DNA of 64,000 bases from Chrysomallon squamiferum (lineage: Eukaryota > Animalia > Mollusca). Shown here piece after piece: positions 3,229 through 59,364 of the stretch (position 1 is the stretch's first letter; each line of letters begins with the position of its first letter). The notes under the pieces were generated by a model that did not search any database, had not been told where the DNA came from, and worked only from the letters and a program-made list of their open reading frames with translations. The stretch spans positions 15,004,001 through 15,068,000 of the forward strand of contig CM022666.1 in the NCBI GenBank assembly GCA_012295275.1, written 5' to 3'. A program made the translations under genes and the position numbers.

Positions 3229-3282
<54 letters not shown>

Positions 3283-3299
3283 AAACACACACAAACACA

Positions 3300-3337
<38 letters not shown>

Positions 3338-6052: not shown

Positions 6053-6088
<36 letters not shown>

Positions 6089-6163
6089 CAAAATGATATA
6101 TGTATGTAAGTATGTATGTATGTATGTATGTATGTGTGTATGTATGTGTGTATGTATGTATGT

Positions 6164-6203
<40 letters not shown>

Positions 6204-18500: not shown

Positions 18501-19359
18501 CCTTTATGTAACTGTTGTGCAAATTCTCTTTTGCTTTTACTGCTGAATGAACGCTGGAAAATTTTATAAATGCAAAAATCTTCAGCATTTTCGATTTCAA
18601 CCTAATTTTGATATCAATATCTTCTATTGTGCCATATTTTCCAAATATTCTTTCCAGATCATGTTTCTCTACATCTTTAGGCAGGTTGCCCACAAACAGC
18701 ACTCTGGTCGTCATGCTACTTCTATCATCCAAGGTGGAATCATTAGATTTTTCTCTGTATCTTCTTTCACCCATTACACTTCCAGACCTGGAAAAATTAG
18801 GAATTTCCAGTGCCGATACATTCTGTAGTAATTCTGGTTCAAAATTCTTCTTGTAGCATGGTACGACATCAACTTTTCTGTTATCCAACAGTAATGGATG
18901 CTCTTCAATAGACCTGTAAGCCCTCCTGGCACTCTCTTGGTGTGCAAATCTAAGGTATGCAAGTCTGTCAACACCACTGTTCATTATTTTAACACTAACC
19001 CTACCATATTTTTCAAATTCCATTAACAAACCATCCTCTAAATCTGAATCAAGAATTCGACTTGGTATGTAGCTAACACATAAATCCTTGTATTCTTGTT
19101 CAACTTGCCCTCCACTATCAGAGGAACTGTAACCAGCCTCACTTCTTTTATCAATTTCATTGCGAGATTTGTAATATCTTCTACCACTTCCAATTCCATC
19201 ATAACTATCTTTATTCCAAATGATGCCATCCTCTGCGTAACTAGATTTCATAATTTTACTGCGTTTGAATCTATCATGTTTTTCATCTTCTTCACTCCAG
19301 TCCCTGTTACGGTGAGGTCGCTTTACAACATGTTCAGAAACAAAATGTTGTCGCTTCAT
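15514..19359 (-). CDS. RBM15/Spenito-like RNA-binding protein with 7 RRMs, (RRM1-RRM2)x3-RRM3, and no SPOC domain; single coding exon, 1281 aa
   Basis: Uninterrupted 3.85-kb ORF; the ATG at 19359 directly follows the acceptor TCTTTGCAG. RBM15-type signatures: LEDGLLMEFEKYGRVSVKI (RRM1), DEKATRTLFLGNL...AKVAMNGK...RIGYGK (RRM2) and LWVGGLGSWV...EFRRFGDIR...AYVQYES..AAQAAC...GWPMGGLDKRLRVDF (RRM3). The C-terminal ~470 aa are S/D/E-rich and low-complexity. Confidence 0.9.
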   Translation of the reverse strand: MKRQHFVSEHVVKRPHRNRDWSEEDEKHDRFKRSKIMKSSYAEDGIIWNKDSYDGIGSGRRYYKSRNEIDKRSEAGYSSSDSGGQVEQEYKDLCVSYIPSRILDSDLEDGLLMEFEKYGRVSVKIMNSGVDRLAYLRFAHQESARRAYRSIEEHPLLLDNRKVDVVPCYKKNFEPELLQNVSALEIPNFSRSGSVMGERRYREKSNDSTLDDRSSMTTRVLFVGNLPKDVEKHDLERIFGKYGTIEDIDIKIRLKSKMLKIFAFIKFSSVHSAVKAKENLHNSYIKGRICKIGYGQLDADVIRENRVNKPHTEASESKSMTKWKSLSVKHIPHHLSTSELIVILKKKFKRFGPMDIDINRINDNRTADIHFQYHKDAKSALEANHNLFLDNKPVKIVPLLKSDGISLEHERYPERERQSHDYHQNLETKSKYFSDVHSEKHTASDTPTNLLFVGKLDSNVRRYDLMNVFSKFGNIDDIDYKTSKNGKGYAFVTFQSVSSAERAYKEISRKKTGKDVWKLGYSKGSQTEKAKTENILKRSHRHPEFENEMKIVGLQISQIPISISDHELKNILQATYKQINKRMKVVVKIKKNHKIAYVYFSHASYAVEALAADIPLKIMKATVSVSPLTKRSVTDEDEVSSTDDTTLEPELDEKATRTLFLGNLPSDVSEKEIRQQFETFGPIEFVTIKRLQGNKAYGFVKYINMDFAYKAKVAMNGKIFKDCKLRIGYGKSVVTSCLWVGGLGSWVNIETIRKEFRRFGDIRRIVWPAGTDFAYVQYESNSAAQAACLKFHGWPMGGLDKRLRVDFVSVNQILNALEDGRKTSVKNNDLVMDGEDSLESDSSESDHETSLEQEPSLNTSRVSDDPLNVSFDSSNSPNPETSNKLLSCFHPKFSDHESSEEGSVWMQPQKPLMLKGSHFSDADEKLERTVFIHSKGKDNDYDFDRDHQPRHKTSGLPDLTSEGIDESLNREIKHYRIESCLPKRSSNLFKEELKNVTEKSMISAEEPRFRRDDCNQYKCIPVIDEYNKKDKYQRKSKVSNLLMDFNQQEVSEKAYQLSPDRREADEEFYHRSSRQREHFHDVKQYLSESRDKKVYPVNTSVAVDYNKLMQFRRDEQITKNRNEHEEIISRSTTSFEFTKLFNNSGSLTPAVGVSSLSSVMHHSVNSETPVSYDDFHVKQKPPNSLWDPGSHQSYDNMLQQTASCSSFTAVGNTIQNIFGTGNNTLNIPGSLHREHTSTQKQPMITPSTLPFTYADPYSMNYQHRDQSDLRRTGAYPSHIQR

Positions 19360-21226
19360 CTGCAAAGATAAATTCTATAATGATTTGAAAACCAATTTAT
19401 TTTTGTTCATAAATTTGCCACATTTTCATGCCAGTAGAAGGTATACAGACATTTATTGCCAAATTAAATGGCAAAATGCAGAACAAAAAAGAAATGGTAA
19501 CAAATATTGTTGTTTTGTTTTCTAAACATATGTCCACAGGTGGAAAAAAAAAAAAAAAAAAAATGATTTACTTTATGATTTACAAAACAAATAATAGTTA
19601 ATTTAATTTGAGTGTTTTCAGATATTAATAGTCCACTAATTTGATTTAGTATTAAAAAAATATCAGATGAATCTATATTAAATAGTACGATATAAACAAA
19701 ACTATTTTACAAAATCCGTTTCTTAATGAAAACGATTTTTAAAGACATTTTAACAACATGACAAAAAGTAAGACAGTATTTTTAAAAAGTGTTACCACAA
19801 GACATTCCTATATAATTCAATTTATTAATTATTTTATACAGGCAATGTGTGTTGCAGAAAAGTACTTTACTGCAAATATGCTTTAACATGAAAAGAATGT
19901 TTCCTGATCAATTTGATGGACTGCTTTATTATGAATTAATAACATCTTCAATTATTCCTGTAACCATCTTCAAATGTCACCTGTTAGTGATAATCAGCAA
20001 CACTGTAAGTTAATATTCTGAACCTGATTCATGTATCACATAAAATTAATGTTTAAGATCAGACAAACTTTGCCACTCTTTGTAATAAGCTTCAGTCTCT
20101 TCTTTTTCGTCTATATAAGTATATATATATATATTCACCACTGCTTGTTTTGCTGTTTTTTGTAAGCATAATGTGGGGAAAAAAATTAAAATCTTTACAA
20201 TATCAGATAACAGAAACTTTCAAGAATGTACAGGATTCGTTAAAAAGAAAATATATATATATATTTTTATTTTTAAGTATTTATTTGATTTTATTTGAAA
20301 AAAAAATTTCAACTTTTCACAAGTAGTTTAAAATCCCCAGCTATCGTCTTGACATTGCATTACCCAATCAGCCAACTGAGATCCCCATTCAGTATATAGC
20401 ATCATTTGAATCATTTAAAAATTAATTTATTAGCTAAATTACTTTGTAATTATGAAGTAAAATACTTTTTCTATCATCAGCTGTTAAATATTAACATTTA
20501 CAGACTGTGGTTGTTATTAGAATTAGTCTTCAAATGTTTGCTTGAAATCATGTACAAAACAGATGATAAAATTTATAAATATTTAAACAACTCTTGTAAA
20601 TTAAAATATATATATATAAACAATAAAATAAATTCTAGTGAGAAAAATACAATTGTCTCACTAGTTCCAACAAAGATAGAAATCACTCCTTTTGTTGACA
20701 ATTTATTCATGAGACATGTTTTCACAATGAGATTTATCTGTTTTTTAAGTTGTTCTTACTGATGCAGACTACAGCTGCTACATTCTATCAAACCTTTTTT
20801 TTTTACCACAAGTCTAATTATGAAGAATAAATTAAATTAAATAAATTGCTTTGATAGGCTGCAAGAATATAATTTTTCAAATGTCAACATTTCTCATTTT
20901 ATGTAATCAGTTAACATCATTTGGCAAAGTTAAATAAAACTGATAAATTATCAGTGAAAATTATCTTTTTACATTTGTCGTGAAAATAGCAGAAAAAATT
21001 TAAATATTTAACTCCATCATACAAACTGTGAAATAATGAATAAAATACTTTATTTCTACAATAATAATTTCAGTACGAGTTTTCCAGTTTTATGAATAAA
21101 GCACAAGAAATTATAGCTGTAATCTTTCATGTAAAGCACAAGAAATTATGGCAATCTTTCATGGCATATTCATATTTTTGCTTTTAATATTTAAAACTAA
21201 AGCATCTGTGATATTTAAAAGATTAC

Positions 21227-22600: not shown

Positions 22601-23972
22601 GAAGAAGAATAGGTGATGTTACTGAATTTATTATTATTTAAAAAAAATATTACTATTAAAGCTACTACTACTAATACTAATTTTACTACTAGTATTATTA
22701 TTATTGTTGTTGTTGTTGTTATTGTTAAACTACTTTTAATTAAACATCTTGAAATACATGTAAAATACGTGTAGAGTACATTTACATATTTATAATAATT
22801 GTGAGAAACATGCATAGGGTAAATATATCAATCCATTCCAAATTTTTCACGATTTGGTTGCACCAGATTGGGTGAATAAAAATATTAAAATACATTCACT
22901 GAAACTTAAATTCGTTTTAGTTTGTATAATTAAAATATCTATAAGTAACTGATTATATGATCGTATATAAGCGACAAATGCAAGAAATATCAGTTGTTTA
23001 TAGGAAAGTAGTTTATTGGTAATACATTTACTCGACAACTGGTTCCCTCTAAAGTATTCGCAAAATAATTGACAAAATGCGGAATGTTCAGTATTAGTCT
23101 AATCAAAATGGTAGACAAAAAGTAGTTGGCCTCTTTTAGAAGAATGAAATTTTAAAATTATGCAATTTTAGGACTGTTTCTAGACATTGCAAAGCACTGG
23201 CAAGACTTTTTATTTAAATGTATTTGTCATTCTAACAGTTTTTAAATATTAAAATATGGTACTATATGTTAATAATGAATTATATTGTAATTTTAGCGAT
23301 TCAGTTCCTAGGATCCTGGGTTAGTTACTTTGTTTAACCGCACAAAACTAAGAACATTTCATTTTGAATTAATAAAACTCATATAGATTGTCCTTTAGGT
23401 TTTTGTTTTTTTAAAGAAAATACACAAGTTTTAAATAATTGAAATCTGCGCGATTCATTTGAAATTCGTCACACAGACTCGCACGATTTTTGTCTTTATT
23501 TTATTTTATTTTTTCTACTTTTTAAAATTAAGATCTCTTGTATTTTATAGTTGTTGGGGTAAAACTCATTCAAACAATTACTAACGAGACAAATGAAAAG
23601 GAAACTCTTTAAATTGCTCTAGAATTCATTGTAATTTAATCTACTACATTGATAGTTTTAATATATCTTAGGCGAAAAGAAGAGAGGCACGTAACAGATT
23701 AAAAATTTTAACAATAGCATAACCCTATCTTAAAACTGTATTATAATTATACAGATTGAAATAAATGTGTTTACAGTCAGAAATGTTTCAGAATTACATC
23801 CAGTAAATATGATAATTTAAAATAAAAACAAATAAATCACATCTTAAAATATCTTAAAAGTGTTTCTTTACAGTTGTTTTTATTATTACTACTACCATTA
23901 TTATTATTAATTATTATTATTATTATTATTTTTTTTTTCTTATTTTCAGTATTAGTAAATTGGTAGAAAATA

Positions 23973-26792
23973 ATGTGGCCAATGTTGCTGGATCTTTCAC
24001 GAGACGAATCAAAGCGAGTTCTGCGTCGCATGGAGCTTGAGGCATATTCTTCGGTGATCACTGCGTTCAGAGCGCAAGGTGATTTGACAAAAGAAAAGAA
24101 GGCTATGCTTCAAGATCTTCAAAATGTTCTCAGGTTAATAAATCTTTATTAATTAACATATTTGGTAAAATTAAAGGTAATAATTAATTGAAAAAAAAAA
24201 TATATATATTATATATATGTATATAGTAATAAATAATTCAATTTTTTTTTTTTAATTCCTGAATAAAATATATTGTTTTAATTGTGCATTTTAAAAAAGA
24301 ATTTACAATTAAACAAAAAATTAATTTCAGTTTGATTGTCTGATTAAACTAATGTTCAGTTCAGTTTGTGAGTTTCGTGTTTTGTTTTTTATAATCTGAC
24401 AGTATTTCAACTGAACGACATCGTGCAGAAGTCAGAAGAGCTGTGAATGATGAAAAACTGGCCACAGTTGCAGACAAGTATTATTCTAAACAGTTTAAAT
24501 TTGCTAATTAAAATTTACCGATTTATTATTATATTTATTTAGTAAAGTGATGTTATCTCTTTGGTACATTTTAAATTGGAAGTCTGTCTTTTGCATATAA
24601 TTAACAAACTAACAATATAAACATTTCTGTCTGTTTGTGAATAACAAGTATGAAAGAAAATTATTTCAATACAGTACAGTTTCAAATTATTGGCGGAAAT
24701 TATAGAATCTAAACAAATTGTGTATTAATTATTCTTTAAATTTTCTAGTCTTCTTTTCTTTATATTTGAAATCAAATGAGTGGGGTTCTTTTTTCAGCAT
24801 TGCTGGTTCAAACACGACCTCAGAGTGGATGATAGAAGGCAGGAGGTTGGTGCCGTTGATGCCAAGACTTGTTCCACAAACAGCGTTCACCGCAACGGCA
24901 AACCAGGCAGCACACTTGCAAGCTGAGAAGAACCTCACACTTCCTTTGCCAGTTTTCACAGGAAACAAGGAAGGTAAACTGATTCACATAAAAAACAAAA
25001 AACCCACTGAACATGTCTAATGGAAAATAAATTCCTTCCGTATTTATAAACTGTAAAATAATTGTGTTTAAAGACTGAGAAATTTTATTAGGATGGTACA
25101 TTGTTAATAAAAAGTAATAAAAATTGTTTTAGGGGAGAAATAAAAGAAATAAATAAATCATGTTTCTGTTTACAAATTAAAATGATTGTTTTGAAAGGAA
25201 AAAGCATTTATCATCTGAAATCTGACTAAATTAATATAATGTGAGTTTAATGATACTAAGTACTGATACTTTTTTAATGGTGTTTGTTTTTTAGTGAACA
25301 ACGTGACGTCGGTGTCAACAAGCACATCCACATCAACCCCACCCACATCGCGGCCGTCTTGCCCCACCAGTCCCACCTCAAACGTTGTTGTACTTCCCAG
25401 TGGGGCTTCCATTCACATCAAAGGTTTGTCACGCCTCAAAGTTTTCAGTCGTCTGCTTCGTGTTGATGAAAAGAATTTAATTTAAAACAGAACATTTTTA
25501 TGTTAGTGGTGTCATTATTTAAAGATTTATTTAGTGATATGAATTTTGATGTCTAAACTGAAGGTTTTGTGAAGTTAGATTTATTTTATATTTATTATTG
25601 AATATTTAAGGGCAACAATTTGAATGCTAATTCTGTGTGTATATTTAGATATATTTAGATATCAAGTTATGAGTTTTTGTATTATGGTATGAGTTAAAAT
25701 GTTGAAATATTAATTTTTTATGTCTGATCTGAATATATTTAATAAACCAGAGAGTTTGAGGTTTTATTTTATATCTGTGCATATTATTTATTAATATATC
25801 CAACATAAATGTTTACTTTCATCTTTTTATGTTAAAAATGAAAGATTACTTATATATTTTGACATTTAAAATAGATGTTTACTAACATGTTTTAACATTA
25901 AAAATATATGTTTTCTGATGAATTCTGATGTTAAAAGTAAATATTTTTATCAATAATTTTAATTATATCTTTTAATTTTAAAAGTAAATGTTTACATATG
26001 TTTTCAGATTAAAAATAAATGTTTCCAGGAAAGGTTTAATTGCAAGTTTTGGTGTCAAAAGTGAACATTTACATAACTATTTTGTAAATTAAATGATTAG
26101 TTACAGGTTTTGATGTTTAAAAGTAAATGTTTATTTACATGTTTTGACACTGAAAGTAAATGTTTTGATGTTTCAGGATGTTTGAACACAGACTATGAGG
26201 AGGAGATGCACACACGAAAACGTCGACGTAGTTTGTCAAACGACAGCCTGAGCTCGTCAATTGGAACTCAGACACCCAGACTTACGTACCCAACTACTAC
26301 AACGTCATCTGTTCCAAGCATGTCGCCAGTAAAAATAACCATCAGCAAGAGTCCACAGGGCCGAACAATTGTATCAACACCAGGAGTACAACCTCCAAAG
26401 GTAAATTCTTCATTTCGCACGTTTATGTAATAGTAATTTTTATATTACTCCTTAACTTTGTAAGATGGAACATTTATTTATCCCTTGTTTACAAATTTCC
26501 TTGTGAGATACATTACAGAAAAATTTGTTTTTCCAGAGAGAGAGAGAGAGTGTGACTGAGTGTGAATAAATGAGTTAGTTGATAGTTTCTGAGATACATC
26601 ACAGATAAATTTGTTTTCCCAGAGAGAGAGAATGTGTGAATGAGTGAGTGAGTGTGTGTGTGTGTGAGAGTGAGTTGATAGTTTCTGAGATACATTACAG
26701 ATAAATTTGTTTTTCCAGAGAGAGAGAGTGTGACTGAGTGTGAATGAATGAGTTAGTTGATAGTTTCTGAGATACATCACAGATAAATTTGT

Positions 26793-26854
<62 letters not shown>

Positions 26855-29800
26855 GATAGTTTCTGAGATACATTACAGATAAATTTATTTTTTCAGAGAG
26901 AGAGAGAGAGAAAGTGAGAGTGAGTTGATAGTTTCTGAGATACATCACAGATAATTTATTTTTCAGGTTATTCTTGTGACAACATCTGGGCAGACTGTGG
27001 GACACAACGTGTTTCAGAAGTCAGTGTCTGTGCCAGTTGTGCGAGCAACAGCTTCGACATCGCAGGGCACAGCTAGAACTCCCGTCATGGTTCCCAGCAG
27101 CTCGCCAGTGTCCTCTGGAAACTTCAACAACGTCTACGCTGTGACTACCACCTCTCTGACATCATCCATAACTACTCCAGGTTGTTTTTCTTAAGCTGAA
27201 TTACGTTACTGTTAAAATCTAAACATGGTGATAATATGTTTGCAGATTCGTTTTAGTATAAGTATACTCATTAACCAGATAATCTGTCTGTTAATTAACA
27301 TAATCAGTTTACGTATGAGTTAAGTTGTTGCTATGTGTAGCCAGTTTGTAATGTTCTACCTTCAGATAAATATAATCATTTACCATCTAATCCACATTTC
27401 ATATTAATTACAGTAACAAAAAAGTTACGGTTTAGCTGTCTATGACACATAATTTGAAATAAGGTGAAAAAATTTAGCAACATCAATGTAATGTTTAAAT
27501 TTTATTTTATTTGAAATAGCATAAATGTATATTTAAAGTGATTTTTAAAAAATATTTCAAATTTTAATAATTTTTTTATTGATGTCTGACAAATTAATAA
27601 TTAGTAGATTCTTTAAATGTTATTCCTAAGTTATAGAAAATGTGTAGTTTTTTAAGACATTTTCAGAAATTTGGCCCCAAAGATATTTTTCTTTGTCTTT
27701 TTCTTTTTTCTTTTTTTATTATATGAAAAATATTTTATTTTAGATATGTAAGTAATAGCAGTAAAACTAAATTATTAATTGAGTGTTTTTTTTATTGTTT
27801 CAGTGACAACATCAGTTCTGGGGTCACCACCACCAATGGTCATCAACTCTGGTCTGCCAAAACCAAGACCTAAAATAATACCACGTCAACGACTGCCACA
27901 GGTAACATCAGTTACAACAGCTTCATTTACATATCAGCTGTTAAAAAATAACAAAGAAGAAACCGTCACAAAATCCCAATAGAATAAGCAGATTTATTGC
28001 ATTATTAAGATTAAAATAAAACAAGTTAACAAAATTAAGAACAAAGAAATATTTTGAAAATCATGTGATATCTAAACTAATCAATGATAATGATGTATAT
28101 ATGATGATATATTATTTGAAAATGTTAATGAAACACACAAACGCAATACATATACATACATGTATACAGACAGACAAAACATATGCAGACACACACACAC
28201 ATACATAAACTATATATATAATACATACATGCATGCAGATACAAATGCATACGTGCATGCACACAGTCGGTCTCAGAAATATTAAATTTTGTTTGAATAC
28301 GTGATACATTTTCATGTGCTGAGTGTTAATATGATGTAATTTTATTTTTTTAATTCATTTTATTTTTGTCTAATTTTCTTGTAACAGCCAATACCAAGCC
28401 AGAAACCTGGAGTTGTAATTCCCATGACTCCACAGCCAGTTCAACCTTCCCCACAGAGCTACCAGATCAAAACAGTCAACAAACCAACCATACAGATAAA
28501 GCAGGAAGGAGGTATGTGTGTGTCTGTAATACTTTATGAATCAAAATCAACGAACTGCATGAATAATTAACACAATATCCAGTTTCTCTCAGATCTGTCA
28601 TTTCCCCATAATCAGTTAATCAGAAGTCACAGTTTGTACTTCATTGCCTATGGGAAGGTAAATAAAAAGCATTCCATACTGCTATTCAAACTAAACTGTG
28701 TTATCTGCTAGAGTGAGTTTTGTCTCTGTCTCGATTTTACATGAAACATTTTGTTTGGGTTATTACAGAGGTGCATTATTTTCATAAAAATTGTTTGGAA
28801 AATTCTTCATTTCATATCTGATATTTTAAATGCAAGCATGCTTGGATTTTTCATAAAATTCAAAAGATACAAACTGACAGATAAGCAATACATAGGAAAT
28901 TCTAAATAGACATTAAAGAATTCTTCAAAATTTCCCACACATCTGTGCTGGTTTTTCTTCCGATAACACTGATAATAAAATAACAATAACAATAATGACA
29001 GTAATACTAAAAATAATGATAAAATAACAATAAAAATAATGACAGTAATACTAAAAGTAATAATAAAATAACAATAACAATAATGACAGTAATACTAAAA
29101 GTAATAATAAAATAACAATAACAATAATGACAGTAATACTAAAAACAATAATAAAATAGCAATAATCATTAGTGCGATAACAACTGATCTGATTAACTCG
29201 CACATCAAAAGACAACCGACTTGAAATCGTTATTCTGTTTTAAATTTCCAGGCATGAAAATCATAACTCAGAGCCTACCCCCCGGTACCAGTAAGATTTT
29301 ACCAAAGCCTGCCCATCTTTCCAGTAACTCTGGAACTCCAGTAGTTGTCGTCAACGCAGGCCCATCTGGCACAGCAACCACCACGGTTAGCATGGTAACC
29401 AAACCTGTGACAACGCTGTCAGGTAAAAAACTCTCTTTGTGCTTTTTGTGATCTTGAAAAATTGTTGTATTAGTGTGCGTGTGTGTGTGTGTGTGAGATA
29501 GTACATAATATGTAGTCTTTATGATGTATGAATGTCTGTATATGTGTTTATGTACATACAGATGAATGTATGTATTGACAGATATATGTGCATATGTATG
29601 TATGCTATATATCTGTCGGTTGTGTGTATGTAGGTATTAATGCGTGTGTATGTATATATGTGTGAAAAAATGTATGAATTCAGTGTGTAATCATTACAGT
29701 ATATTTTTAGATAACAGTTTCAGACACAACATTTGTTTTATTTTACAAGTTGTTTCTGAATTGTGTTGAATAAAATATATTATAAATTATTTGAAATTTA

Positions 29801-31906
29801 TGATTTGAAAGTCCAATCTTGAAATGTCTATTAAAAATATATCACAAATACCCTTTGACACTGAAATGTTCTTTAAATAAAATTGCTAAATTTGATTATT
29901 AATTAAAATTGTATAACTTTTATAATATTTTTAAATAAATAATTAAAACATTTTAAAATGTAATTGTTATTAAACAACTTTTTAAATATTATAATAATTA
30001 TTACAAAAAAAACCCCAACAAATGTTATAATTAAAGGTAATCATCCAGCTGGAAAAGTTTTGAATATTTCAACAGCAGGGGGTCGGGTCATCGCCACGAC
30101 AACCAAGTCATCAAATGTTGTCACAGTAAACCCCAAAACCCTCCACCTGACTGCTGTTAAAACTGGCGCAGGAACAACAGGTACGTTTTGTTTTATTTTA
30201 TTTTATCTTATTTTATTTTATTTTGATTTCATTTTTTTAATTTTTAATTTAATTTAATTTAATTTTATTTTATTTCATTTATTTTTTTTAATTTTTAATT
30301 TAATTTCATTTCATTTTATTTTATTTTATTTTTTATTTTTTATTTTTTTGTCGATGCTAACAAGTGTTGTAAATACATTGCACATACTTCCAAATGACTT
30401 TCATTTCTTCCTGTTAAAGTATATTTTATAAATTTTCATTATTTTAATGGCAACTAATTTTTATTTAATAGCAACTACAATATTAAAGTATGCCAGCACA
30501 GTTTTTGGTAAGGTTGTGTGGATGCACCAATTGCTTTTTACTGTTGTATATATCACTTTGTAAATAGCAGCTAAGAAATTATCTAACTCACACAAAATGT
30601 GCAGTTTGGTTAAATATCTTTCTTTTCTTTTTTTACCAGGATCAAATTATTATTATTAATGGCAACCATTCTTTGTTAATAATAAAGAATGATGATAGAG
30701 TATCATTAACACGGTTGTGAGAATGCAGTTTTTATTATTATTATATATATCATGTTCTGAAAAAGCAGCTAAGAAGTTACCTAACACACACAAAACGTTC
30801 AGTTTGATACAAGTTTTTGTTGTTTTTTTTCTCTGTAGAAAGTCAAAGCACGCGGAGATAGATGTGATGATAATTCTTGTTGTATTCTTGCAGTGTCGAA
30901 ACCTAATGTGATTGTTGTGCAGAAAACTCAGACGAGGCGAGCCTCCACCCCGACACACCCAGCCCCTGGCAGCTCACAGGAGTGTCTCACTGTGAAAGTT
31001 TGTCTTCGTTTCTTCTTTTGTTTCTGTTTAAAATGTATCTGCATGACGCTAAGAAGTCATTCATTTAGAAAATGTGTTCATGAAATAGTGCCTCTGCAGC
31101 ATTTGTTTTTGTTTGAAACATATCTTCGCAATGTTAACTTACAGACTGTGCTTATAACAACACTGAGTTATTCATATAGAAAAAGTCTTCTTAAAAATAG
31201 TGTCCATGCAACTTTTTTCTTTTTTTTCTCAGTAATAATTATTGTAAAAGTGTAAAAAAAAAAAAAAAATGTTATGTAATATTTAATGAAAGTATAAAAT
31301 AAAGTGTCATTTGATGTCACTGATTTTTGTATATGACATTGCTTGTCATTATTTGTAATGAAATTTTAAAACATGACGGAAGTGTGCTCAACATGGCTGA
31401 AAACATTCATTCACCACTTTGGTGTTTGTGGTGTGGCTCATGTTTCCTTAGTTTACAGACATTTGACTCGCATTTTGACAGTCTCACTTCAAACACCAAA
31501 CAGTTAAATACACCTTGTATACTTCCAGTAGCTTGTCTTGTTTCTTTCTTGTCTGTGTTGCTCTAAAAATGTGTGCGAATTACATACAGTTTTAGCTGTT
31601 GTTTTATGTTATGGATGCATTCCAGATATTTGCGTTAATATTATTAATTTTTTTTCAAACCTGGAATGAAATGACTTTCATATATGTAAATCACTGTTGT
31701 TGTTGTGATCAGTTACTTTATCTTAGTTTCAAACTGAAAATTAAATACTTTTTTAAAAATATTTTTATTATTATTGTTATTGGTGTTATTGTCTTCAGTA
31801 ACTTATCTTAGTTTCAGACTAAAAATTAAAGATATTGTTTATGTATTACACGCAAACACACACCACACATATTTTTATTTATTTTTATTTATTTATTGTT
31901 TAACTT

Positions 31907-31937
<31 letters not shown>

Positions 31938-33124
31938 CTTATTTATTTATTTATATATATTTATAGTTTTACTTTTATTTATTTATTTATTTATACCTTT
32001 ATTTATTTATTTATTTATACCTTTTTGTATGTATTTATTTATTTACTTACATATTTATTTATTTATGAAGGAATTGGCTAATATAATTCAGAAACAAGAA
32101 AAGAACATATCAGTGACGTCTGGGTCTGCTTTGAGTAACTTGGGTTCTGCCCTGAGTAAAATTGGAGACAGAAAAGTCATCATTACAACACAGACAGTGG
32201 GAGAGGCTGCTAAACATACAGTAAGACATTACCTTCATTCTGTCCTACACTCAGTAACACTGAGTTAGCAGAAGAGAGAGAAATTTCACAAAAAGCTTAC
32301 AAATATTAAAATACTGATGTCTGTTTTCTTCATTCTGTCCTCCACTCAGTAATATTGAGTTAGCAGAAAAGATAGAAATTTCACAAAAAGCTTACAAATA
32401 TTAAAATCCTGATGTCTGTTTTAGAGTGGTCCTATTTTACAACGTTCACGACCGGAACAAGAAGGAAAAACATCGTCACTTCTGGCTGAGCTTATCCAAG
32501 CTGCTGGCATCGTACCAGAAGCAGCAGCAGAAACTGGTAAAGTTGTTTTATCTTTCTCATCCTTTTACTGATACATATACATACTCTTTACTTATATCAG
32601 AGAAGAAAAATAAAGAAACAAGAAACATCATTTAGGCATGTGTTAAGAATAAAATTAAGACACTAGTGTAAATGAGATATAGCAATAATAATAATGATAG
32701 CAATAATAATAATAATAATAATTAAAAAAAAATGATAATAACAAGAAGAAAGAAAAAAAGAAAATGATGGCCCACTCCCCCTTCATGAGATATTTATAGA
32801 AAACTTTTACTGATGTTCAGATGTTCCCGGGACAGGAAGTGGAAATGAGTGGTTTGAGTATGACGTGACAGATGACCAGGGCCACACCGTTGTCACGACA
32901 ACGGAAGACTCCACCGCCATCGATGCTCTTCTGCAGAGGCAGGCAGCAGACGCCGCAGGCAAAGTGAAAGAGTCGAGGTAGGTAAAATAAAATTTGTTTA
33001 TTTATTTATTTATTATTTTACTGATTAGTTTTTTTATTGTTAGTATGGGGGGAAGGGGTGTGAGCTTTCATTTCCTTTATTCCTTTCTTATTGTTATTAT
33101 TATTTTATGATTATTATTGCTATG

Positions 33125-33169
<45 letters not shown>

Positions 33170-33246
33170 TTTATTATTTTATTATTATGATTATTATGAT
33201 TATTATTATTATTATTTTTATTATTTTATTATTATTATTATTACTA

Positions 33247-33281
<35 letters not shown>

Positions 33282-33308
33282 TTTATTATTTTATTATTAT
33301 TATTACTA

Positions 33309-33345
<37 letters not shown>

Positions 33346-35557
33346 AAGTCTGTTTAAGTTTTTTTATAAAACAGAAAATATTCAGAAACACACATACACA
33401 AAGATATCAAACAACAAACAAAAGTGTCTTATAGTCGGATTTAGATTAAGGCCACAAGAAAAAGATTTGTTTTAGGAAAACTGTTGATGTGTGCTGAAGT
33501 GGAATTTAAAAAAAATCGTTGTGATTCTGAATTTCAGTTTAGCAAGTGCACAGCTAGAGAGACTACAAGGTCAACAGCCAGAAACACAGTATTATACAAT
33601 AGGTCAGTATGAACACAGTATTATACAACATGTTAATATCAACATAATATTTATACAATAGGTCAGTGTCAACACAGTATTTATACAATGGGTCAGTGTC
33701 AACATAGTATTTATACAATATGTCAGTGTCAACACAGTATTATACAATATGTCAGTGTCAACACAGTATTATACAATATGTCAGTATTAACACAGTACTA
33801 CACAATAGGTAATTATTAACACAGTATTATATAGTAGGTGAGTATCAATACTGTACTGCACAATTATGTGACAAAGGTCATTAATACAATATTAAGACAG
33901 TCATATTCAATAGATTTGTTTTTGCACAGTACTCTGCAACAGGACATAGGTCAGCATTAAAACAGACTACACAAGAGATCTTATTTTTTTGTTTTTTTGT
34001 TGTTGTTGTTGAAGTGTGTGTTGGTGTTTGCAGATCAAGCGATGTCACTGTTAAACCAGACAGAGAAAGATAACTCTTCCACTGACACTTCCCAGTCATC
34101 TAGCGATAATACTGCAGTGAAATCAGAACAAGCCCAGGTAAAATATTTTAACTTTACCATTTATCTGCATTTACTTGTGTTGATGAAACACATAAACACA
34201 CAGCAATAAATAATGAAGTAAAATATAGGGTTGGGTGGTGTGGTATAATGTAACATGAAACAAAACCAAAAAAATAGAAATTTTGAATTTTAATTAAAAC
34301 AAAAAAAGAAATCTCTTGTTTCAGATTCACATAATCAAAACTTCGTTGCCAGGCAGCAAGCTGCCTGCAGAACACATACAGCACATCCGTGTTCCTCTGC
34401 CGTCGTCCCGGCAACCAGGTCTGGGCAGCAGAGCGCTAGAGATCACTAGAGGTCAGAGTTCAAGTGTCAGAGAGCTTGACCCCCAGACGGGTCTCTTTTC
34501 ATCCAGTGGTGTCCGCAAACAGCGCAAAAACACTGTCATCGTTGGACTCGCGCCAAAAGTTGTTACACCTCCGGTGGGGACAGCAAAATCGCTGACAACA
34601 GCAACCACACAGTCTCAGAACTTTGACTTACTCAGCAGCTCACTGGCTCAAGCACAGATAGACCTGGACTCGTTTGAATATGTCCAGTCGAAAGATGCAG
34701 TGACTGTTGGTGATTCTGCGGAAAATTCTAATGTTAAAGAGACCAGAGACATATCAGCAGATAAAATAGCACCTTCCATAGGAGACACTATAACACCTGT
34801 AGACGACAGTGTGACACCTATAGGAGATACTGTCACAGCTGCAGGAGACAATGTGACAGCCGTAGGAAATGAAGTAGTGACTGTAGGAGACAGTATGCTG
34901 CGTGTAGGAGATACTGTGGCTCCTTCTGTAGGAAACAGTGTAACCATAGCTTTAGCAGATAACGTAGGAGACATTCATTCTGTAGGAGACAAAGTGATGC
35001 ATGCTGACAGTGTCCCGCCGACTGAAAATGTGACAGTTAAGCTTGCAGGAGACTCTGTCGTCACTGAGACTGTAGGAGATGTCGCTGACTCTGAAGGAGT
35101 CGTCATCACAGAATCAACAGAGGAGATTGTCACCCAGTCGTCAGGAGACACCGTCACCCAGTCTTCAGGAGACACTGTCACCCAGTCTCAAGGAGAGATT
35201 GTAGGAGACTCAGTGACTATCATAGAGACAGCAGACACGTTGACAGAGACAGGAGAAAGTGTCACCCTGTCATCAGATGTCATTCATTCTAAAGATGTCA
35301 CTTCACCTGAAGACACATCCACTGTCAGTACAGATGATTTACAAAAGGAAGATAGTTCTGAGAAGCCACATGAAGGTAGTGTTATATACACATTATTTTT
35401 TTAAAGTATTTTATTAATGTAAATGTTAAAGCAAAAAAAGAATTTTGTTTTTATTTGTAATCTTTTTTTCTTTTTTCTTTTTGAAAAGTTTTATTATTCA
35501 TGCTGTCAGGTTTTGCAGAGTTAATTCATACATATTTAGTTTTATTTAAAGGTTTAA

Positions 35558-35617
<60 letters not shown>

Positions 35618-38600
35618 CTTTGTTATCTTACTCCTATATTTCAGATAAGTCTTATGATGTGGGTTTGTCATCATCAACTTCAAACATCTCAGATGACACT
35701 GACATCCAGTCTTCAGCAACATCAACAACATCAGTCCCGCTGACAGACAACAGCAGCACAGTTCAAAAATCTGCCATCAACATCATCATACACGCACAGG
35801 TAATATACAACCCATGTAAAATGTGAAATCATGTATAATAACAATTTGAACACCAAACATCAGTTGGCTATACATTATAATATTAATGCAAAAAATGGAA
35901 GACATGATATGTAAAATGTTTTAGCAATATTAATGCAGAAAATGCATTCATAATAATATGAAAAATGCAACAACAGATTACTAGCAACAACAACAAAAAT
36001 GTCGTAATTAATATAAATTTAAAAAACAAATAATCAGAATAATAATATTAAAAATAAAATGCAATAACACTTTTAATGAAAAATTCCATCTTGTATATAA
36101 TTATTTGCATTAATAATATGTGAACATAAATTTGAAACTAAATTTATATAATCCAGGTGTGATGGCAGTGCAGTATTTGCTAATCTAGCATTCAGCAGTT
36201 ATTTGATTGTTAATGCAGAATAGTGAAAATTTAGCAGACTTCAAATAACTTGTGCAATACATTTAATGATTATTATGAAACTCATGAACATAAATTGATC
36301 TTAGAATAGCTATTTACTTGTTAAATAAATATGATTATACATTTTTGTTAATTGGCAAAAAAGGTTTTTTTTTATAAAAGTTGGGTAATCTCAAAGGTTG
36401 GTGACTTTTTAGTAATTTAATTAAATTAATATCACATTTTTATCTGGCCTTAATCTTTCATGTTAGTTTACAACATTTTGATATTTTTTTCTGTTAATTA
36501 TTTCAACTATTGCATTAAGCAAATAGCTATATATATATTTTTTTTTTAATCGACAATTTAAATTTACTTACAAACGCAGTTTTTAAATTTAAATTAACAA
36601 ATCTGTTTCAGACACACGTACAAACAGACCTGCTGGACACATCAGAAGAAAATAATTCGAGCAGCGAAAATATTATGGTTACCATGGATCCAACAGTTGA
36701 ACTGGTGCCTCTGACTAGGGAGGAACTAACTTCACAGCAGACAGGCGAGAAACACGTTGGCAGACGCAGTGAAGAGAAGATTTTTCTTGACAAGACAGAA
36801 GTTGTGTTGTCAGAATCTGGTTCACCGACAGGTAGGTTCAAAAAAATAATTAAAATGTTCTTTTCTGAATACATTCTCTAATAAATTTTGTTGTACTTCA
36901 AAGTTTTTATTTGTGTTATTTTGGGTGGCATATCGTTGCTTTTAGCAAAGTATTATAATAAAATAAATTTGTTATAAAACATTTAAATCCTGCCATTTTA
37001 TCTCTTCACAAATGCATACTTGGCAGACTGGTAACATTGTGTTGTTGTTTTTTGGTTTTTTTTTATATAAATAGAATAAATCAGTTCTTTCATTTGTACA
37101 CAGTGATGTTACAAGTAAAAATCGTTTGACAATACAATGATGGTTTTTTTGCTGTTAATGTTTTGTTGTTGTTAATGTTTTGTTGTTATTATTAAATATA
37201 AATAAAAATAAAAATAAAAATAACTTTTAAATATCCAGACTAAATTCATCAACACAGATATGCTCAAGTATGTAAAAACAAACTTTACTTTCCTAACAAA
37301 CCGACATAAAATCCTTCAAACTTCTTCAAGAGATAATCAATTCGCTGATCTTTCGTAACGATTAATTTGGAAAACTTGTAAGAACTAAACTAATCACTCA
37401 TAACGGATTTTACAGGCAGCAGTTGCGAAGTCCAGGAGGAGAGAACTCTTGGTGACTCGGGTCATGAAGCGAACAATGCTTTACGTTTGAGTTCTCGGAA
37501 ACGAAAGCAGGGCACCCTCGCAGAAGAACCTCAGCATATCAGTACCATGGGGGGATGGGTGAGGGCATCGTTAGGGTAAGTGGTGAATAAATCAGTACAT
37601 TACCTTGGGTGTGTGGGGGAGGGGTGAATAATAAAGACAGTTAAAACTTGTGTTATGTTTTATTTATCTGCATTCGCTTGCAAAGTAAAATATTTTTTGT
37701 GTTTCAGTTTAATTCAGAGAGTGTCGAAGTTCCGAGGTGCTAACAGAGAGAAAGGAGACTTGAATGCTGCAGCATGGTTCCTTAAACCAGGTGAAAATAA
37801 GTTGTTTTTTTTGTTAATTGTTCACTGGAAAAGTCTAATAAACAAAAATAAAAACAAATATATACATATATGTATACAGATAAACACAGAGACATAGAAG
37901 CATATGTATCTATCTATCTATCTATCTATCCATATATATATATATATATATTTACACATGCACATACACATGCATTCATGCATATCTATATTAATGATTT
38001 AAAAAAAATAAGAAATAAATAAACAAGAGAATAAAGGAAAAACAATAAATAAATAATAATAATAAGTCAAAACACTGATTTAAAAAAAAATATATATATA
38101 TTAGTAATTAATAAATGTCAAAACATTTTTAATAAATTTTGTAAATTTTATTGTTTTGGTTCTAGTTGATCCAGTGGATGCTCCAAACTATTACTCAGTT
38201 GTGAAAAATCCAATGGATTTTGGAACAATCAAGAAAAAAATAGAGGTAATTTTCACAACTAGTAAATCAGAATTATTGAAAGAAAATATTACCTGTGAAA
38301 CTCAATTTGATGTTTCTCTTTTCGTAAATAAAGTTTCTACTGTAAATAAGTGAAAGATTTTGAAAAGAAAAATTTAGTTTTGGAACTGAATTGTTTTTCA
38401 GTTATTAGGTTACAGTTCTGCTTGTTAAACATTTTGACAAATTACTGCACAATTTTTAATACGTACTTATTTTCACTTGTTTATTCTTCATCAGTTAATA
38501 CAAAAAAAAAAGCTAAAGTTTAGGGATGAATTGAATTATATTTCAGGTTTTACACTTCTGCTAGTTAAAAGGTTTTGACTGAATACTGCTCTCAGTAATA

Positions 38601-40058
38601 GTATACAGTTTATAGCATGTTGATTGTGATAGTTGGTGATGTTTTTGTACATTAGTTAAATAAATTAATTCTGTGAGAAATTTAGTTTGAATGCCTGACC
38701 GGTCCTAGAGTGATCGAAAATGCAAGAAGTTTGCAAATGAAACCTACTTAAATGAAAATTAAATTTTATTTAGATTTTCTTTACTGGATATATTATACAT
38801 GTACACCTATAAAAAACAGTATTTTACTGTGAGTTGTGAACAACTGTTTTACACATTTTATAAAACCTTTAGAAAAAAACTTATTTTAAAACTGTGTTAC
38901 AGACAGGAGATTACAAGTCTTTTGACGATTTCCACGCCGATATGATTCTTGTACAGAGCAACTGCAACCTCTACAACCACCCAGACAGCAAAGTGAGGCA
39001 GGATTGTGAGGAAGTGTTTGCATTTTACCAACAAGAGCGAGCTAAAGTGCTAGACAAGCTGCAGAAAGTGAGACACATCTTTGTTTCTCACTTTAAAATG
39101 TCACTAACTTGTTATGTTGTTATTCAGTAAACAAGCTGCAGAAAGTGAGACATATTTATTTCTCACTTTAAAATGTCACAAACTTGTTATGTTGTTATTC
39201 AGTAAACAAGCTACAGAAAGTGAGACACATCTTTATTTCTCAATTTAAAACAGTTTTATCTTGTTGTGTTCTTGTACATATCTTTTTTAACCATTTTCAC
39301 TTGTTTTATTTCATGTTTTTTCACCACCCCAGTCAGTTTTCTGTGACTGATTTATCAAATGCTTTAGACTCTGTTTAGTACCTTTTTTTCTGGAACAATC
39401 ACTTTCTGCAAATGAAAAGGTGTAACCAGCAGAGGATATTCCTTTTTCATTATCTGTATGTTCCTTAACCATTGGTTTGACATATGCTGTAGCTTAAAGA
39501 TATATTGTTCAGCAAAAAGTTATTTTTGATAAACTTTATAATAACCGGTAGTCTGTTAATTCATTATTGGTCAAGGAGGAGCTGTATGAGGTACTTACTC
39601 TTCAAACTGATTTCAACTGGCATAACTGAGATGTGCCAACTGAATTTATCTCAAAGATTATGTCCAACATTTGGTCAGTATTTTCTAGAGGTACAGTTTT
39701 CAGTGGATTTACTGAAACTTGGCCCTTTCAGGAAATGTGACCTTTTCAACCTGGCAGTAATAAAGATTTTTGAAATTACAAAACATCTACACCAAGAATT
39801 TGCTCACTAATCTAAAACAATTGTTTCTTTCGAAACTGAAAATGGTCGACAGACAAGTTTCATATTTCCCTTTGTCATTTTATGTTTTTCAGTATTTCTT
39901 ATAAAGTAGATAGTTTTTAGTCTTTATTGTGTTCTTGAATTACATTTGAATAACATTACACAGTTAAAAATAAAATTTAAATAAATTTATTTCAGGGTAT
40001 GAACTTTTCTCCAGTGGTGAAGAAATTTCGGATAGATAAAAGTCCTGCAAAATCCTAG
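23973..40058 (+). CDS. EMSY: EMSY (BRCA2-interacting transcriptional repressor) homologue with N-terminal ENT domain and C-terminal bromodomain; 24 coding exons, ~1394 aa
   Basis: Exons: 23973-24133, 24403-24477, 24798-24973, 25295-25423, 26177-26400, 26967-27180, 27804-27901, 28388-28511, 29252-29422, 30037-30180, 30894-30997, 32071-32220, 32425-32536, 32821-32977, 33538-33602, 34034-34137, 34325-35375, 35645-35799, 36612-36831, 37416-37575, 37708-37790, 38166-38245, 38903-39067, 39996-40058. All junctions are GT-AG and phase-compatible, total 4185 nt. The ENT domain reads MWPMLLDLSRDESKRVLRRMELEAYSSVITAFRAQGDLTKEKK...ISTERHRAEVRRAVNDE, followed by EGRRLVPLMPRLVPQTAF. Further EMSY motifs: NVVVLPSG, KPTIQIKQE, PNVIVVQKT, LDPQTGLF. 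Confidence 0.9.
26500..26966 (+). repeat. Six tandem copies of an acceptor-containing unit (GATAGTTTCTGAGATACATYACAGATAAATTTGTTTTTCCAG) separated by (AG)n/(TG)n
   Basis: Copies at ~26503, 26581, 26678, 26759, 26855 and 26927; the last ends at the real EMSY acceptor at 26966. Confidence 0.88.
28978..29165. repeat. ~42-bp minisatellite (AATAACAATAACAATAATGACAGTAATACTAAAAGTAATAATAA), ~4 copies
   Basis: Visible tandem units in an EMSY intron. Confidence 0.85.
32233..32424. repeat. Two ~95-bp tandem copies making up almost the whole EMSY intron 12
   Basis: CTTCATTCTGTCCT...CACAAAAAGCTTACAAATATTAAAAT.CTGATGTCTGTTTT occurs twice; the second copy ends in the acceptor TTAG. Confidence 0.85.
33090..33345. 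repeat. (TAT)n microsatellite
   Basis: Visible run. Confidence 0.95.
33582..33860 (+). repeat. ~29-30-bp minisatellite (AACACAGTATTATACAATAGGTCAGTGTC), ~9 copies, first copy spanning an EMSY exon/intron junction
   Basis: The first unit contains the exon-15 end (TQYYTI) and the donor at 33603. Confidence 0.88.
37545..39067 (+). other. Bromodomain-encoding exons of the EMSY gene
   Basis: GWVRASLGLIQRVSKFRGANREKGDLNAAAWFLKPVDPVDAPNYYSVVKNPMDFGTIKKKIETGDYKSFDDFHADMILVQSNCNLYNHPDSKVRQDCEEVFAFY contains the canonical FxxPVD, PxYY, PMD, Y..F..D and NCxxYN motifs. Confidence 0.92.
39053..39260 (+). repeat. Three ~75-78-bp tandem copies of the end of EMSY exon 23 plus its donor
   Basis: ACAAGCTRCAGAAA|GTGAGACA at ~39054, 39131 and 39206. 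Confidence 0.88.
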
Positions 40059-41254
40059 CAGAGATTGGAGGAGAAAAAAGAGAAGAAGAATGGCCAAAAC
40101 AAAATGTAATTTTATTTGATCTTAAAATATTTTCTACAGCTTCAACAATATTTTATTATTTTATTGTTCTTTTTATTTTATTTATTTTTTTTTTTTTGCA
40201 GGGATGGGCTGGGAAGAGAATTGTACACTTTTTATTGTGTAATTATATGTGCTAAATTATTGTTTAAAATTACAGTGATCATCTAAACAAAATAAATAAA
40301 TAAATAAATAAATAAATTCTTAATTCTTCAGTTCAGACTTACACATGATAGAAAATACATACAGTTTAGTGAAAACAAAAATAAATAATTTAAATGTTTA
40401 AAAAGAAAAAAACGTTTTTGTAAAAATGACACAACAACAGTTGAAAAGAATACTGAGACAATGGTAGAAGAAACAGAAAATAAAAGAAAAATGTGTCTGT
40501 TGTATTTTGAAATTTCCTCCATTTTCAAACTTGAATTGAAAAAACCTGAAATATTTAACAAAATTCGAAAATAATCTGGATTCAAAACAATGTAAAAAAT
40601 AAAATAGTTTGTTGGAAAAACATATTAAAAAAAAAAAAAAAAAAAAAAAAAGAAAAAGAAATATTCAAAAATGATATTATTTATTTAAAAATTACAGAAT
40701 TTATTTGATAAAGATTTTTATTTTTCTTATTTTATTTAATAATATTATTTTAACAATAATATTTTTGAACATATTTCCTTATCAGGTATTCGACATCAAA
40801 GTATTTTGTATTTATTTTTATTTATTTTCTCCCTTATTTAAACTTGGAGATTTGTCTTTGCTGATGTTAAAGGATGACTGTTAATGGCAAGTGTGTGGAG
40901 ATTTCAAAGATGCTGTCATTTTTCCTGTGCATTTAACATCTTACATTTTACAATAAATTATTTTGAAAAATAAAAATAAATACTTAAAAATGTATCATAG
41001 TAACTTCAGGAATGCTTTATTCACAACAGTTTTTTTTTTTTTTTTTTATTATCTAGGAAGCACAAAGATTTTTATTTATTTTATTTTATTTTATTTTATT
41101 TACTACATATATTATTTATTTATTTTATTTTAGTTTAGTTTATTTCATTTTATTTTATTTCCATGTATTTATATATATATATATATGTTTTTTAAAATTT
41201 ATTTGTTTATTTATTTATTTATTTATTTATTTATTATTATTATTGTTATTGTTA

Positions 41255-45094: not shown

Positions 45095-46075
45095 CTCCAT
45101 GTTGAATCAAAATAACATTTATGTAATAATGAAAGTAACATATTTGCTAAACCCAGATCAAAATAACTCAATTTTCACATTTACTAAATATGAATCAAAA
45201 TAACTTGTTTTTACATTTGATGAATTTGAATCAAAATATCTCTTATCTTTGATTAAAATAACTTCAGGGAATCTGAATCAAAATAACTTATATTGCTACA
45301 TTTGCTAAATCTGAAACAAAGTTAACTCATGAATTCACATTAGTCAAGCAATAATGAAAAGAATACATCACTACATCTGCTAAAAGTAAGTCATTTATCG
45401 ATGTTTGCAAAACCTGTTAGCTACATCTCAAAACTGAATGTCTCATTTTAACATCTGTACCTCAGAAGACAAATAATTCGTATTTCCTAAATCTGAAGAG
45501 ATATAATTAACAACTTAATGTCTGTTGTACAATAACAAAAATCACTCATGATAGCTGTATCTAAATTGGTGACTGATGTTTCTATATTTATTGTTTCTGA
45601 CTCAAAATAATTCTATTTCCACATTTACTCCTTGAGAATCAAAATAAAAAGTTTCCACGTTCTGGATCAAAATAACTTCTGTATTTCTGTATTTGACAAA
45701 TTTGAATCAAAATAACTCCTGTTTGTGCATTTGCCAAATCTGAATCAAAATAACTCCCATTTCTGTATTTGCCAAATTTGAATCAAAATAACTCCTGTTT
45801 CTGTATTTGCCAAATGTGAATCAAAACAGCTGCAGTTTCCATATCTGCCAAATGTGAATCAAAATAGTTCCTGTTTCTGTAACTGCCAAATGTGAATCAA
45901 AACAGCTGCAGTTTCCATATCTGCCAAATTTGAATCAAAATAGCTCCTGTTTCTCTATCTGCCAAATGTGAATCAAAATAGCTCATTTCAATATTTGCCG
46001 AATTTGAATAAGAAATAACTGATGTTTCCGTATTTTGCCAACTTTGAATCGAAGGAACTGATTTTCCGACACACT
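45095..46075. repeat. ~38-bp minisatellite (TTGCCAAATYTGAATCAAAATAACTCCTGTTTCTGTAT) in the presumed ENOX 3' UTR
   Basis: Well-conserved core at 45690-46010 with degenerate copies on both sides. Confidence 0.88.
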
Positions 46076-46101
46076 GTGAATTTTGACTGGGAAGAAGTAA
46101 C

Positions 46102-47177: not shown

Positions 47178-47209
<32 letters not shown>

Positions 47210-51251: not shown

Positions 51252-51302
<51 letters not shown>

Positions 51303-51320
51303 AACACACACACACACACA

Positions 51321-51353
<33 letters not shown>

Positions 51354-55158: not shown

Positions 55159-55206
<48 letters not shown>

Positions 55207-58783: not shown

Positions 58784-58814
<31 letters not shown>

Positions 58815-59344: not shown

Positions 59345-59346
59345 GG

Positions 59347-59364
59347 TCAGACAAATCTAGTCAT
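59347..59364 (-). promoter_or_regulatory. 5-codon uORF (MTRFV*) ending 2 nt upstream of the ENOX start codon
   Basis: The minus strand reads cag|GA ATG ACT AGA TTT GTC TGA CC ATG G. Confidence 0.6.

What the first reader, a model, noticed from the sequence alone, without database searches (positions are those of the whole stretch)
23973..40058. EMSY fused in-frame to a C-terminal bromodomain
Seen: one phase-consistent 24-exon reading frame joins the ENT domain and the adjacent RRLVPLMPRLVPQ motif to a complete bromodomain (exons 20-23). The domain retains the acetyl-lysine pocket Tyr (PNYY) and Asn (NCNLYN), and has a short insertion (RGANREKGDL) before AWFLKPVDP where a WPF-like shelf normally sits. 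Established: vertebrate EMSY has ENT as its only recognised globular domain, binds HP1-beta through the motif next to ENT, and recruits reader proteins such as the bromodomain-containing ZMYND11/BS69. Inference: this protein could carry its own acetyl-lysine reader, coupling HP1/repressor recruitment to acetylated chromatin. It may be an ancestral architecture lost in vertebrates or a lineage-specific fusion. I cannot tell whether databases already list it.
Basis: partly seen in the sequence, partly recalled or inferred. Interest (0 to 1): 0.75.

Follow-up and report, generated by a model that had tools for sequence, protein, structure and literature searches.

The report
EMSY's ancestral bromodomain, lost in vertebrates

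Summary
A 24-exon GT-AG frame (23973-40058) joins ENT to a bromodomain. One assembled RNA contig runs from the ENT exon into the bromodomain, and others finish it. Its length points to an exon-10 acceptor at 30037 and 1394 aa.

It is not a lineage-specific fusion. ENT plus bromodomain is already in NCBI/UniRef for a sponge, placozoans, cnidarians, molluscs, annelids, a brachiopod, a nemertean, arthropods, echinoderms, hemichordates and amphioxus. These bromodomains form one group (100/99) with pocket Tyr 75 of 75 and Asn 74 of 75, and are at most 33% identical to listed solved structures.

None of 57 named vertebrate rows has it; most end 26-34 residues after a motif that elsewhere precedes the bromodomain, which fits loss by truncation.

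Acetyl-lysine binding and tethering of a SIN3/HDAC/KDM5 complex are inferred, not tested. Eight literature searches showed no description. Verdict: ordinary for invertebrates, listed in databases, apparently undescribed.

The parts
23973..40058 (+). EMSY gene, ATG to stop, 24 coding exons; 1381 aa as first modelled, likely 1394 aa as expressed
23973..24477 (+). Exons 1-2 (23973-24133, 24403-24477): ENT domain
   Evidence: Pfam PF03735; joint seen in 3 RNA runs
24798..24973 (+). Exon 3, with the motif next to ENT (24841-24879) that the finding calls the HP1-binding motif
   Evidence: the homologue P0001 is identical over this motif to human EMSY in the solved chain 2fmm_E; joints
25295..29422 (+). 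Exons 4-9 (25295-25423, 26177-26400, 26967-27180, 27804-27901, 28388-28511, 29252-29422): Ser/Thr/Pro/Val-rich linker
   Evidence: joints 3-4 and 4-5, loose end 5-6
30037..30180 (+). Exon 10, upstream acceptor (30037) likely used instead of 30076
   Evidence: exact length match of the RNA contig and open frame; the added residues match P0001
30894..35799 (+). Exons 11-18 (30894-30997, 32071-32220, 32425-32536, 32821-32977, 33538-33602, 34034-34137, 34325-35375, 35645-35799): low-complexity linker with short conserved motifs
   Evidence: exon 18 and joint 18-19 in 4 RNA runs; exons 11-17 by length match only
36612..36831 (+). Exon 19, with the pre-bromodomain motif (about 36678-36740) whose counterpart lies at the C-terminus of vertebrate EMSY
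37416..37575 (+). Exon 20: basic RKRK stretch (possible nuclear localisation signal, inferred) and start of bromodomain helix Z
   Evidence: joint 19-20 in 4 runs, 20-21 in 1 run
37708..37790 (+). Exon 21: end of helix Z, family-wide basic insert (37733-37762) and AWF shelf
   Evidence: joint 21-22 in 1 run
38166..38245 (+). Exon 22: ZA loop with the conserved Tyr (PNYY 38183-38194) and helix A
   Evidence: Pfam PF00439, 31 bits; joint 22-23 in 2 runs
38903..39067 (+). Exon 23: helices B and C, pocket Asn (codon 38975-38977), Val gatekeeper
   Evidence: Pfam PF00439, 28.1 bits; joint 23-24 in 2 runs
39996..40058 (+). Exon 24 coding part: basic tail and stop

Best explanation
This is a spliced, expressed EMSY gene that carries ENT and a C-terminal bromodomain, likely the ancestral animal form of EMSY, and its bromodomain is predicted to bind acetyl-lysine on histones and so would anchor EMSY and its likely SIN3/HDAC/KDM5 and HP1 partners on acetylated promoter nucleosomes. 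Shown: one frame and RNA joints; the same architecture across animal phyla; one bromodomain group with an invariant pocket; absence in the jawed vertebrates seen. Inferred: loss in vertebrates by truncation just after a shared motif (about 0.9); acetyl-lysine binding (about 0.8); histone ligand and tethering of the deacetylase/demethylase complex, a read-then-erase loop at active promoters (about 0.5).
For: Gene model and Pfam. In RNA run X2 a contig of 3861 nt, depth 12.5, holds exons 1-5 and exons 18-21; it is taken as the same contig from equal length, depth, strand and consistent record positions. Runs X1 and X3 give joints 21-22 to 23-24. Pfam rescan: both domains in 8 of 8 chosen invertebrate proteins (Gigantopelta, Sycon, Trichoplax, Acropora, Hydractinia, scorpion, tick, amphioxus), ENT only in the 4 others (skate, macaque, damselfly, Limulus) (names). 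Tree: 32 EMSY-type domains against 34 others, insert and helix Z left out, one side of a branch at 100/99; same result with 60 others. Pocket: Tyr 75 of 75, Asn 74 of 75 distinct domains, the miss being a truncated model. The model of the nearest homologue's domain is a four-helix bundle, pLDDT 90.7, matching bromodomains at Z about 17. A motif profile from bromodomain-bearing proteins scores 12 bits or more in 48 of 59 long ENT-only proteins, 26-36 residues from their end, against 0 of 295 shuffles and 0 of 148 control proteins. Mammalian EMSY complex at H3K4me3 promoters: review passages in PMC10578193 and PMC9309374.
Against: No binding was tested. The fold was predicted for the Gigantopelta domain (83% identical), not for the window's own. 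RNA evidence is assembled contigs from one study, not single molecules; the long contig ends 44 nt into exon 21, and 12 of 23 joints rest on a length match. Partners are known only for mammalian EMSY. The motif seed was picked with a pattern shaped by the vertebrate motif and was found in 19 of 32 proteins tried; it scored below zero or not at all in the cnidarian, sponge and placozoan proteins. The 57 vertebrate rows are heavily redundant isoforms and include no lamprey, hagfish or tunicate. The tree is unrooted and its outgroup lacks named BPTF, GCN5, CBP and BRD9 rows.
Confidence: 0.65

Rival explanations
1. Same ancestral architecture, but the bromodomain's main ligand is not a histone: it reads an acetylated partner protein, or uses its basic insert to grip DNA or another subunit.
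For: A 7-9 residue insert (relative to BET domains) with near-invariant Gly (72 of 75) and Lys/Arg (73 of 75), an invariant helix Z Trp (73 of 75, two gaps) and an xWF shelf mark the family. No listed solved bromodomain exceeds 33% identity.
Against: Pocket Tyr and Asn and a small hydrophobic gatekeeper (Val 47, Ala 21, Ile 4, Thr 2 of 75) are canonical. This fits acetyl-lysine binding but cannot name the ligand.
Confidence: 0.22
2. The domain mainly serves HP1-linked silencing: it spots acetylated nucleosomes at heterochromatin edges and brings in HP1.
For: The motif next to ENT is near-invariant in bromodomain-bearing proteins: 46 of 75 read LVPLMPRLVPQ or LIPLMPRLVPQ, 9 are variants and 20 gave no match to the pattern. 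EMSY-HP1 binding is cited in PMC8394001 (passages).
Against: Review passages place the mammalian complex at active H3K4me3 promoters, with activation of some targets. The plant bromodomain-EMSY-like pair sits on acetylated, H3K4me3 genes (10.1101/2024.07.25.605061, passages).
Confidence: 0.1
3. Lineage-specific fusion, read-through between two genes, or a gene-prediction artefact.
For: Some annotations split the locus into an ENT gene and a bromodomain gene (Centruroides sculpturatus; Elysia crispata).
Against: RNA contig from ENT into the bromodomain. 4-5 kb Logan contigs of other animals encode the whole ENT-bromodomain frame (P0018, P0023, P0028). A congeneric scorpion has the fused 1259-aa form. 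One bromodomain group from sponge to amphioxus.
Confidence: 0.02

Closest known systems
Invertebrate 'EMSY-like' database proteins, e.g. Gigantopelta aegis XP_041352455.1 (P0001)
   Same: Same architecture, PF03735 plus PF00439; 68% identical over the whole length, 83% in the bromodomain.
   Different: Nothing essential. They are automatic annotations; no study of them turned up in my searches.
Human / jawed-vertebrate EMSY (C11orf30)
   Same: ENT domain, the adjacent motif and the motif near the C-terminus.
   Different: No bromodomain in 0 of 57 named rows; most end 26-34 residues after the shared motif.
Solved bromodomains of BPTF, CBP/p300, TRIM24, GCN5, BAZ2 and BET
   Same: Four-helix fold, Z about 16-17, rmsd 1.1 A over 104 residues to BPTF; pocket Tyr and Asn.
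   Different: At most 33% identity; at most 84 bits for any single-domain chain against the EMSY profile, against 150-216 for EMSY-type domains; xWF shelf and a basic insert. No single nearest family.
Arabidopsis GTE4-EML1/2 complex; Leishmania BDF5 with an ENT protein
   Same: An ENT protein works with or near a bromodomain protein on chromatin (10.1101/2024.07.25.605061, passages; PMC9279504, passages).
   Different: Separate polypeptides. EML has an Agenet reader and GTE4 is a BET protein; the Leishmania link is proximity labelling only. An analogy, not shown homology.

Membership tests
EMSY orthologues | N-terminal ENT domain | tested here: met
   PF03735, 52.1 bits on exon 1 alone against a cut-off of 28.5
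EMSY orthologues | Conserved motif directly after ENT | tested here: met
EMSY orthologues | Similarity beyond ENT to annotated EMSY | tested here: met
   68% over the full length to P0001; C-terminal motif shared with vertebrates (partly circular seed)
EMSY orthologues | Binds BRCA2, HP1 and the SIN3B/KDM5A complex | not testable with these tools
   known for mammals from review passages
Bromodomain (PF00439) | Profile match above the curated cut-off | tested here: met
   exon 22: 31 bits, exon 23: 28.1 bits, cut-off 21.7; P0001: 76.6 bits
Bromodomain (PF00439) | Four-helix Z-A-B-C bundle | tested here: met
   model of the 83% identical P0001 domain, pLDDT 90.7; Z 17.2 to CBP and TRIM24
Bromodomain (PF00439) | Pocket Tyr and Asn | tested here: met
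   75 of 75 and 74 of 75 distinct domains
Bromodomain (PF00439) | Binds acetyl-lysine | not testable with these tools
   needs a binding assay
BET-type bromodomains | WPF shelf, tandem domains and ET domain | tested here: not met
   shelf is xWF; single domain, no ET family in Pfam; separate side of the tree
Other named subfamilies (BPTF/GCN5/CECR2, CBP, TRIM24/BAZ, BRD7/9) | Grouping with that family in a tree | tested here: inconclusive
   their sequences were not in my tree; structural scores are tied within 1 Z unit at the top

The most novel reading that the evidence does not exclude
EMSY-type bromodomains are an undescribed, animal-wide reader subfamily that humans lack, whose basic insert gives a distinct ligand or nucleosome contact. 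ENT proteins would pair with a bromodomain as a general rule: fused in most animals, in trans in plants and trypanosomatids. Vertebrate EMSY would have swapped its own reader for partner readers, which would explain how the cancer-linked complex finds chromatin; grafting the invertebrate domain back on human EMSY in cell lines would test this directly.
Probability: 0.25. Interest if true: 0.7.

Novelty: new variant of a known kind. Interest (0 to 1): 0.45.

Why it matters
EMSY is studied almost only in mammals, where ENT is its one recognised folded domain. If the ancestral animal protein ended in an acetyl-lysine reader kept from sponges to amphioxus, then the human protein is the derived, truncated case. 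That gives a concrete hypothesis for how the EMSY deacetylase/demethylase complex was first aimed at acetylated promoters, and it adds a bromodomain subfamily with no close solved structure. The weight is limited: the architecture is already visible in public annotations, this gene is ordinary for its lineage, and no function is shown.

Tried and rejected
Own-genome search: no genome is held for this window. Earlier findings of this scan: none by words or by sequence. The Atlas search returned only generic bromodomain clusters. The 50% representative search was dominated by multi-bromodomain proteins and added only a few EMSY rows. The bromodomain-region search with a single protein found only 7 hits among 169 candidates. 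A motif profile built from vertebrate tails alone was a weak test: its best hit lay within 200 aa before the bromodomain in only 20 of 87 proteins, because a similar N-terminal stretch outscored it; the reverse test was used instead. The first pocket count mixed in unrelated domains and was redone. 'Loss in chelicerates' is rejected as a general claim: tick and scorpion have the fused form, and the ENT-only scorpion entry is a split annotation. Limulus (5 isoforms without the domain) and the damselfly Ischnura (one protein) may be further losses, paralogues or truncated models; not resolved. Low-depth RNA pieces inside intron 23 were not pursued. No complex prediction was run, since no specific binding pair is claimed. 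The primary EMSY-complex paper (Varier 2016) was not held. The supplements of the chromatin-evolution survey could not be seen and may list this architecture; its main text has no 'EMSY' or 'ENT'.
Full report
Observation. Exons read off the sequence give a 24-exon frame from the ATG at 23973 to the stop ending at 40058. All 23 introns are GT-AG, the protein is 1381 aa and has no internal stop. Of 8 single exons scanned, Pfam finds ENT on exons 1 and 2, Bromodomain above its cut-off on exons 22 and 23, a weak off-target hit on exon 20, and nothing on exons 3, 17 and 21.

Transcript. Four RNA runs of one study hold the region, as assembled contigs. On 35620-40140 they show joints 18-19 and 19-20 in 4 of 4 runs, 20-21 in 1, 21-22 in 1, and 22-23 and 23-24 in 2. 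On 23250-26480, joints 1-2 to 4-5 appear in the RNA runs, and loose ends read on into exon 6. In run X2 a record of 3861 nt, depth 12.5, holds exons 1-5 at positions 2-790 and exons 18-21 at 3281-3860. I take these for one contig, running from ENT to 44 nt into exon 21. The 2494 nt between exon 5 and exon 18 equal exons 6-17 exactly if exon 10 starts at 30037, which gives 1394 aa and adds residues that the nearest homologue also has. Contigs are not single molecules.

Distribution. An ENT search gave 2213 hits, of which 120 were listed: 36 carry both PF03735 and PF00439, and 0 of the 57 named vertebrate rows do (many are isoforms of few species; all are jawed vertebrates). The nearest protein is from the gastropod Gigantopelta aegis, 68% identical over the whole length, so the window is likely a gastropod. 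A profile of 16 bromodomain stretches extended the fused form to a chiton, annelids, echinoderms, hemichordates, a tick and Trichoplax. Cluster look-ups named Sycon, Acropora, Oculina, Hydractinia, Acanthaster and a scorpion. A Pfam rescan of 12 chosen proteins confirmed both domains in 8 and ENT alone in 4.

The bromodomain. Among 379 proteins held at that point, 84 of 175 ENT-bearing ones had a bromodomain. Of these, 81 scored 150-216 bits against the profile; apart from 17 ENT-less fragments or split models of the same type, no domain scored above 84 (16 rows are the profile's own seeds). In trees the 32 EMSY-type rows lie on one side of a branch: SH-aLRT 100 against 60 other domains, and 100/99 against 34 others with the insert, helix Z, ten long rows, 14 further rows and two rows without the anchor motif left out. 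The trees are unrooted, and the outgroup is mostly BET, polybromo-like and fungal domains. Among 75 distinct EMSY-type domains the pocket Tyr is kept in 75 and the Asn in 74; the gatekeeper is Val, Ala, Ile or Thr; the shelf is xWF; and a 7-9 residue basic insert relative to BET domains follows helix Z. The insert is thus a family signature, not a quirk of this species. The AlphaFold model of the Gigantopelta domain is a four-helix bundle with pLDDT 90.7. It matches CBP, TRIM24, BPTF and others at tied Z of about 17 and at no more than 33% identity, so no donor family can be named. The labels 'shelf', 'gatekeeper', 'pocket Tyr/Asn' and 'helix Z' rest on recalled bromodomain knowledge.

Gain or loss. 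A short motif lies 48-151 residues before the bromodomain in 19 of 32 bilaterian proteins tried. A profile of it scores 12 bits or more in 48 of 59 long ENT-only proteins (46 named vertebrates, one unnamed, Limulus), 26-36 residues from the end, against 0 of 295 shuffles and 0 of 148 controls. The seed pattern was shaped by the vertebrate motif, so the test is partly circular, and the motif was not found outside bilaterians. Together with presence in sponge, placozoans, cnidarians, protostomes, ambulacrarians and amphioxus, the simplest reading is an origin at or before the sponge-bilaterian ancestor and loss by truncation on the way to jawed vertebrates (inference, using the accepted animal tree). 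Further losses in Limulus and in an insect are possible but unresolved; one apparent loss in a scorpion is a split annotation.

Mechanism. Mammalian EMSY binds BRCA2 and HP1 (PMC8394001, passages). It sits in a SIN3B/HDAC/KDM5A complex at active H3K4me3 promoters (PMC10578193 and PMC9309374, passages; the primary paper was not held). It also occupies domain boundaries (PMC13504289, passages). I infer that the ancestral protein uses its N-terminal module and linker motifs to hold these partners, and its C-terminal bromodomain to dock on acetylated nucleosomes. Parallels in trans: the Arabidopsis BET protein GTE4 binds EMSY-like EML1/2 (10.1101/2024.07.25.605061, passages), and a Leishmania ENT protein is proximal to BDF5 (PMC9279504, passages). 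None of the binding steps was tested here.

Novelty. The architecture is in NCBI and UniRef, so it is not new to databases. Eight searches of the held library (listings and abstract openings only; 40 of 51 papers were listed) showed no paper describing it. A chromatin-evolution survey lacks the words EMSY and ENT in its main text (10.1101/2021.11.30.470311, term counts and passages); its supplements were not seen and may list it. Subscription journals are mostly not covered. Verdict: a real, ordinary invertebrate EMSY that reveals an apparently undescribed ancestral bromodomain subfamily; new variant of a known kind; interest 0.45.

Noticed in passing
window 768-6498, - strand: First exons of a calpain gene (PF00648), closest to calpain-5 among solved structures, 17 kb upstream of EMSY. 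Human EMSY is at 11q13.5 (PMC5915152, passage); that CAPN5 lies in the same band is recalled, and fits a reference title seen. Possible ancient linkage.
   Followed up: partly
window 15517-19374, - strand: Uninterrupted 1286-codon frame with six RRM matches; resembles RBM15/Spen-type proteins (recalled); single long exon or retrocopy, divergent from EMSY.
   Followed up: partly
window about 45900-59356, - strand: Multi-exon gene with an RRM exon at 57139-57381 and coiled-coil-like exons; looks like ENOX1/2 (recalled, untested).
   Followed up: no
window 62230-63051, + strand: First exons of a type I phosphomannose isomerase (PF20511).
   Followed up: no
window 34325-35375: Exon 17 is 1051 nt and holds short in-frame tandem repeats (21 and 24 nt periods) that encode an acidic Val/Thr/Gly/Asp-rich stretch unlike the matching part of P0001.
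   Followed up: no
window 33583-33855 and 39054-39250: Tandem repeats that begin inside the ends of exon 15 and exon 23 and so copy their donor sites into the intron; RNA shows the first donor used for exon 23.
   Followed up: partly
P0385, P0387 (Centruroides sculpturatus); P0019, P0151 (Elysia crispata): Public annotations split EMSY into an ENT gene and a 'bromodomain-containing' gene, which hides the architecture.
   Followed up: partly
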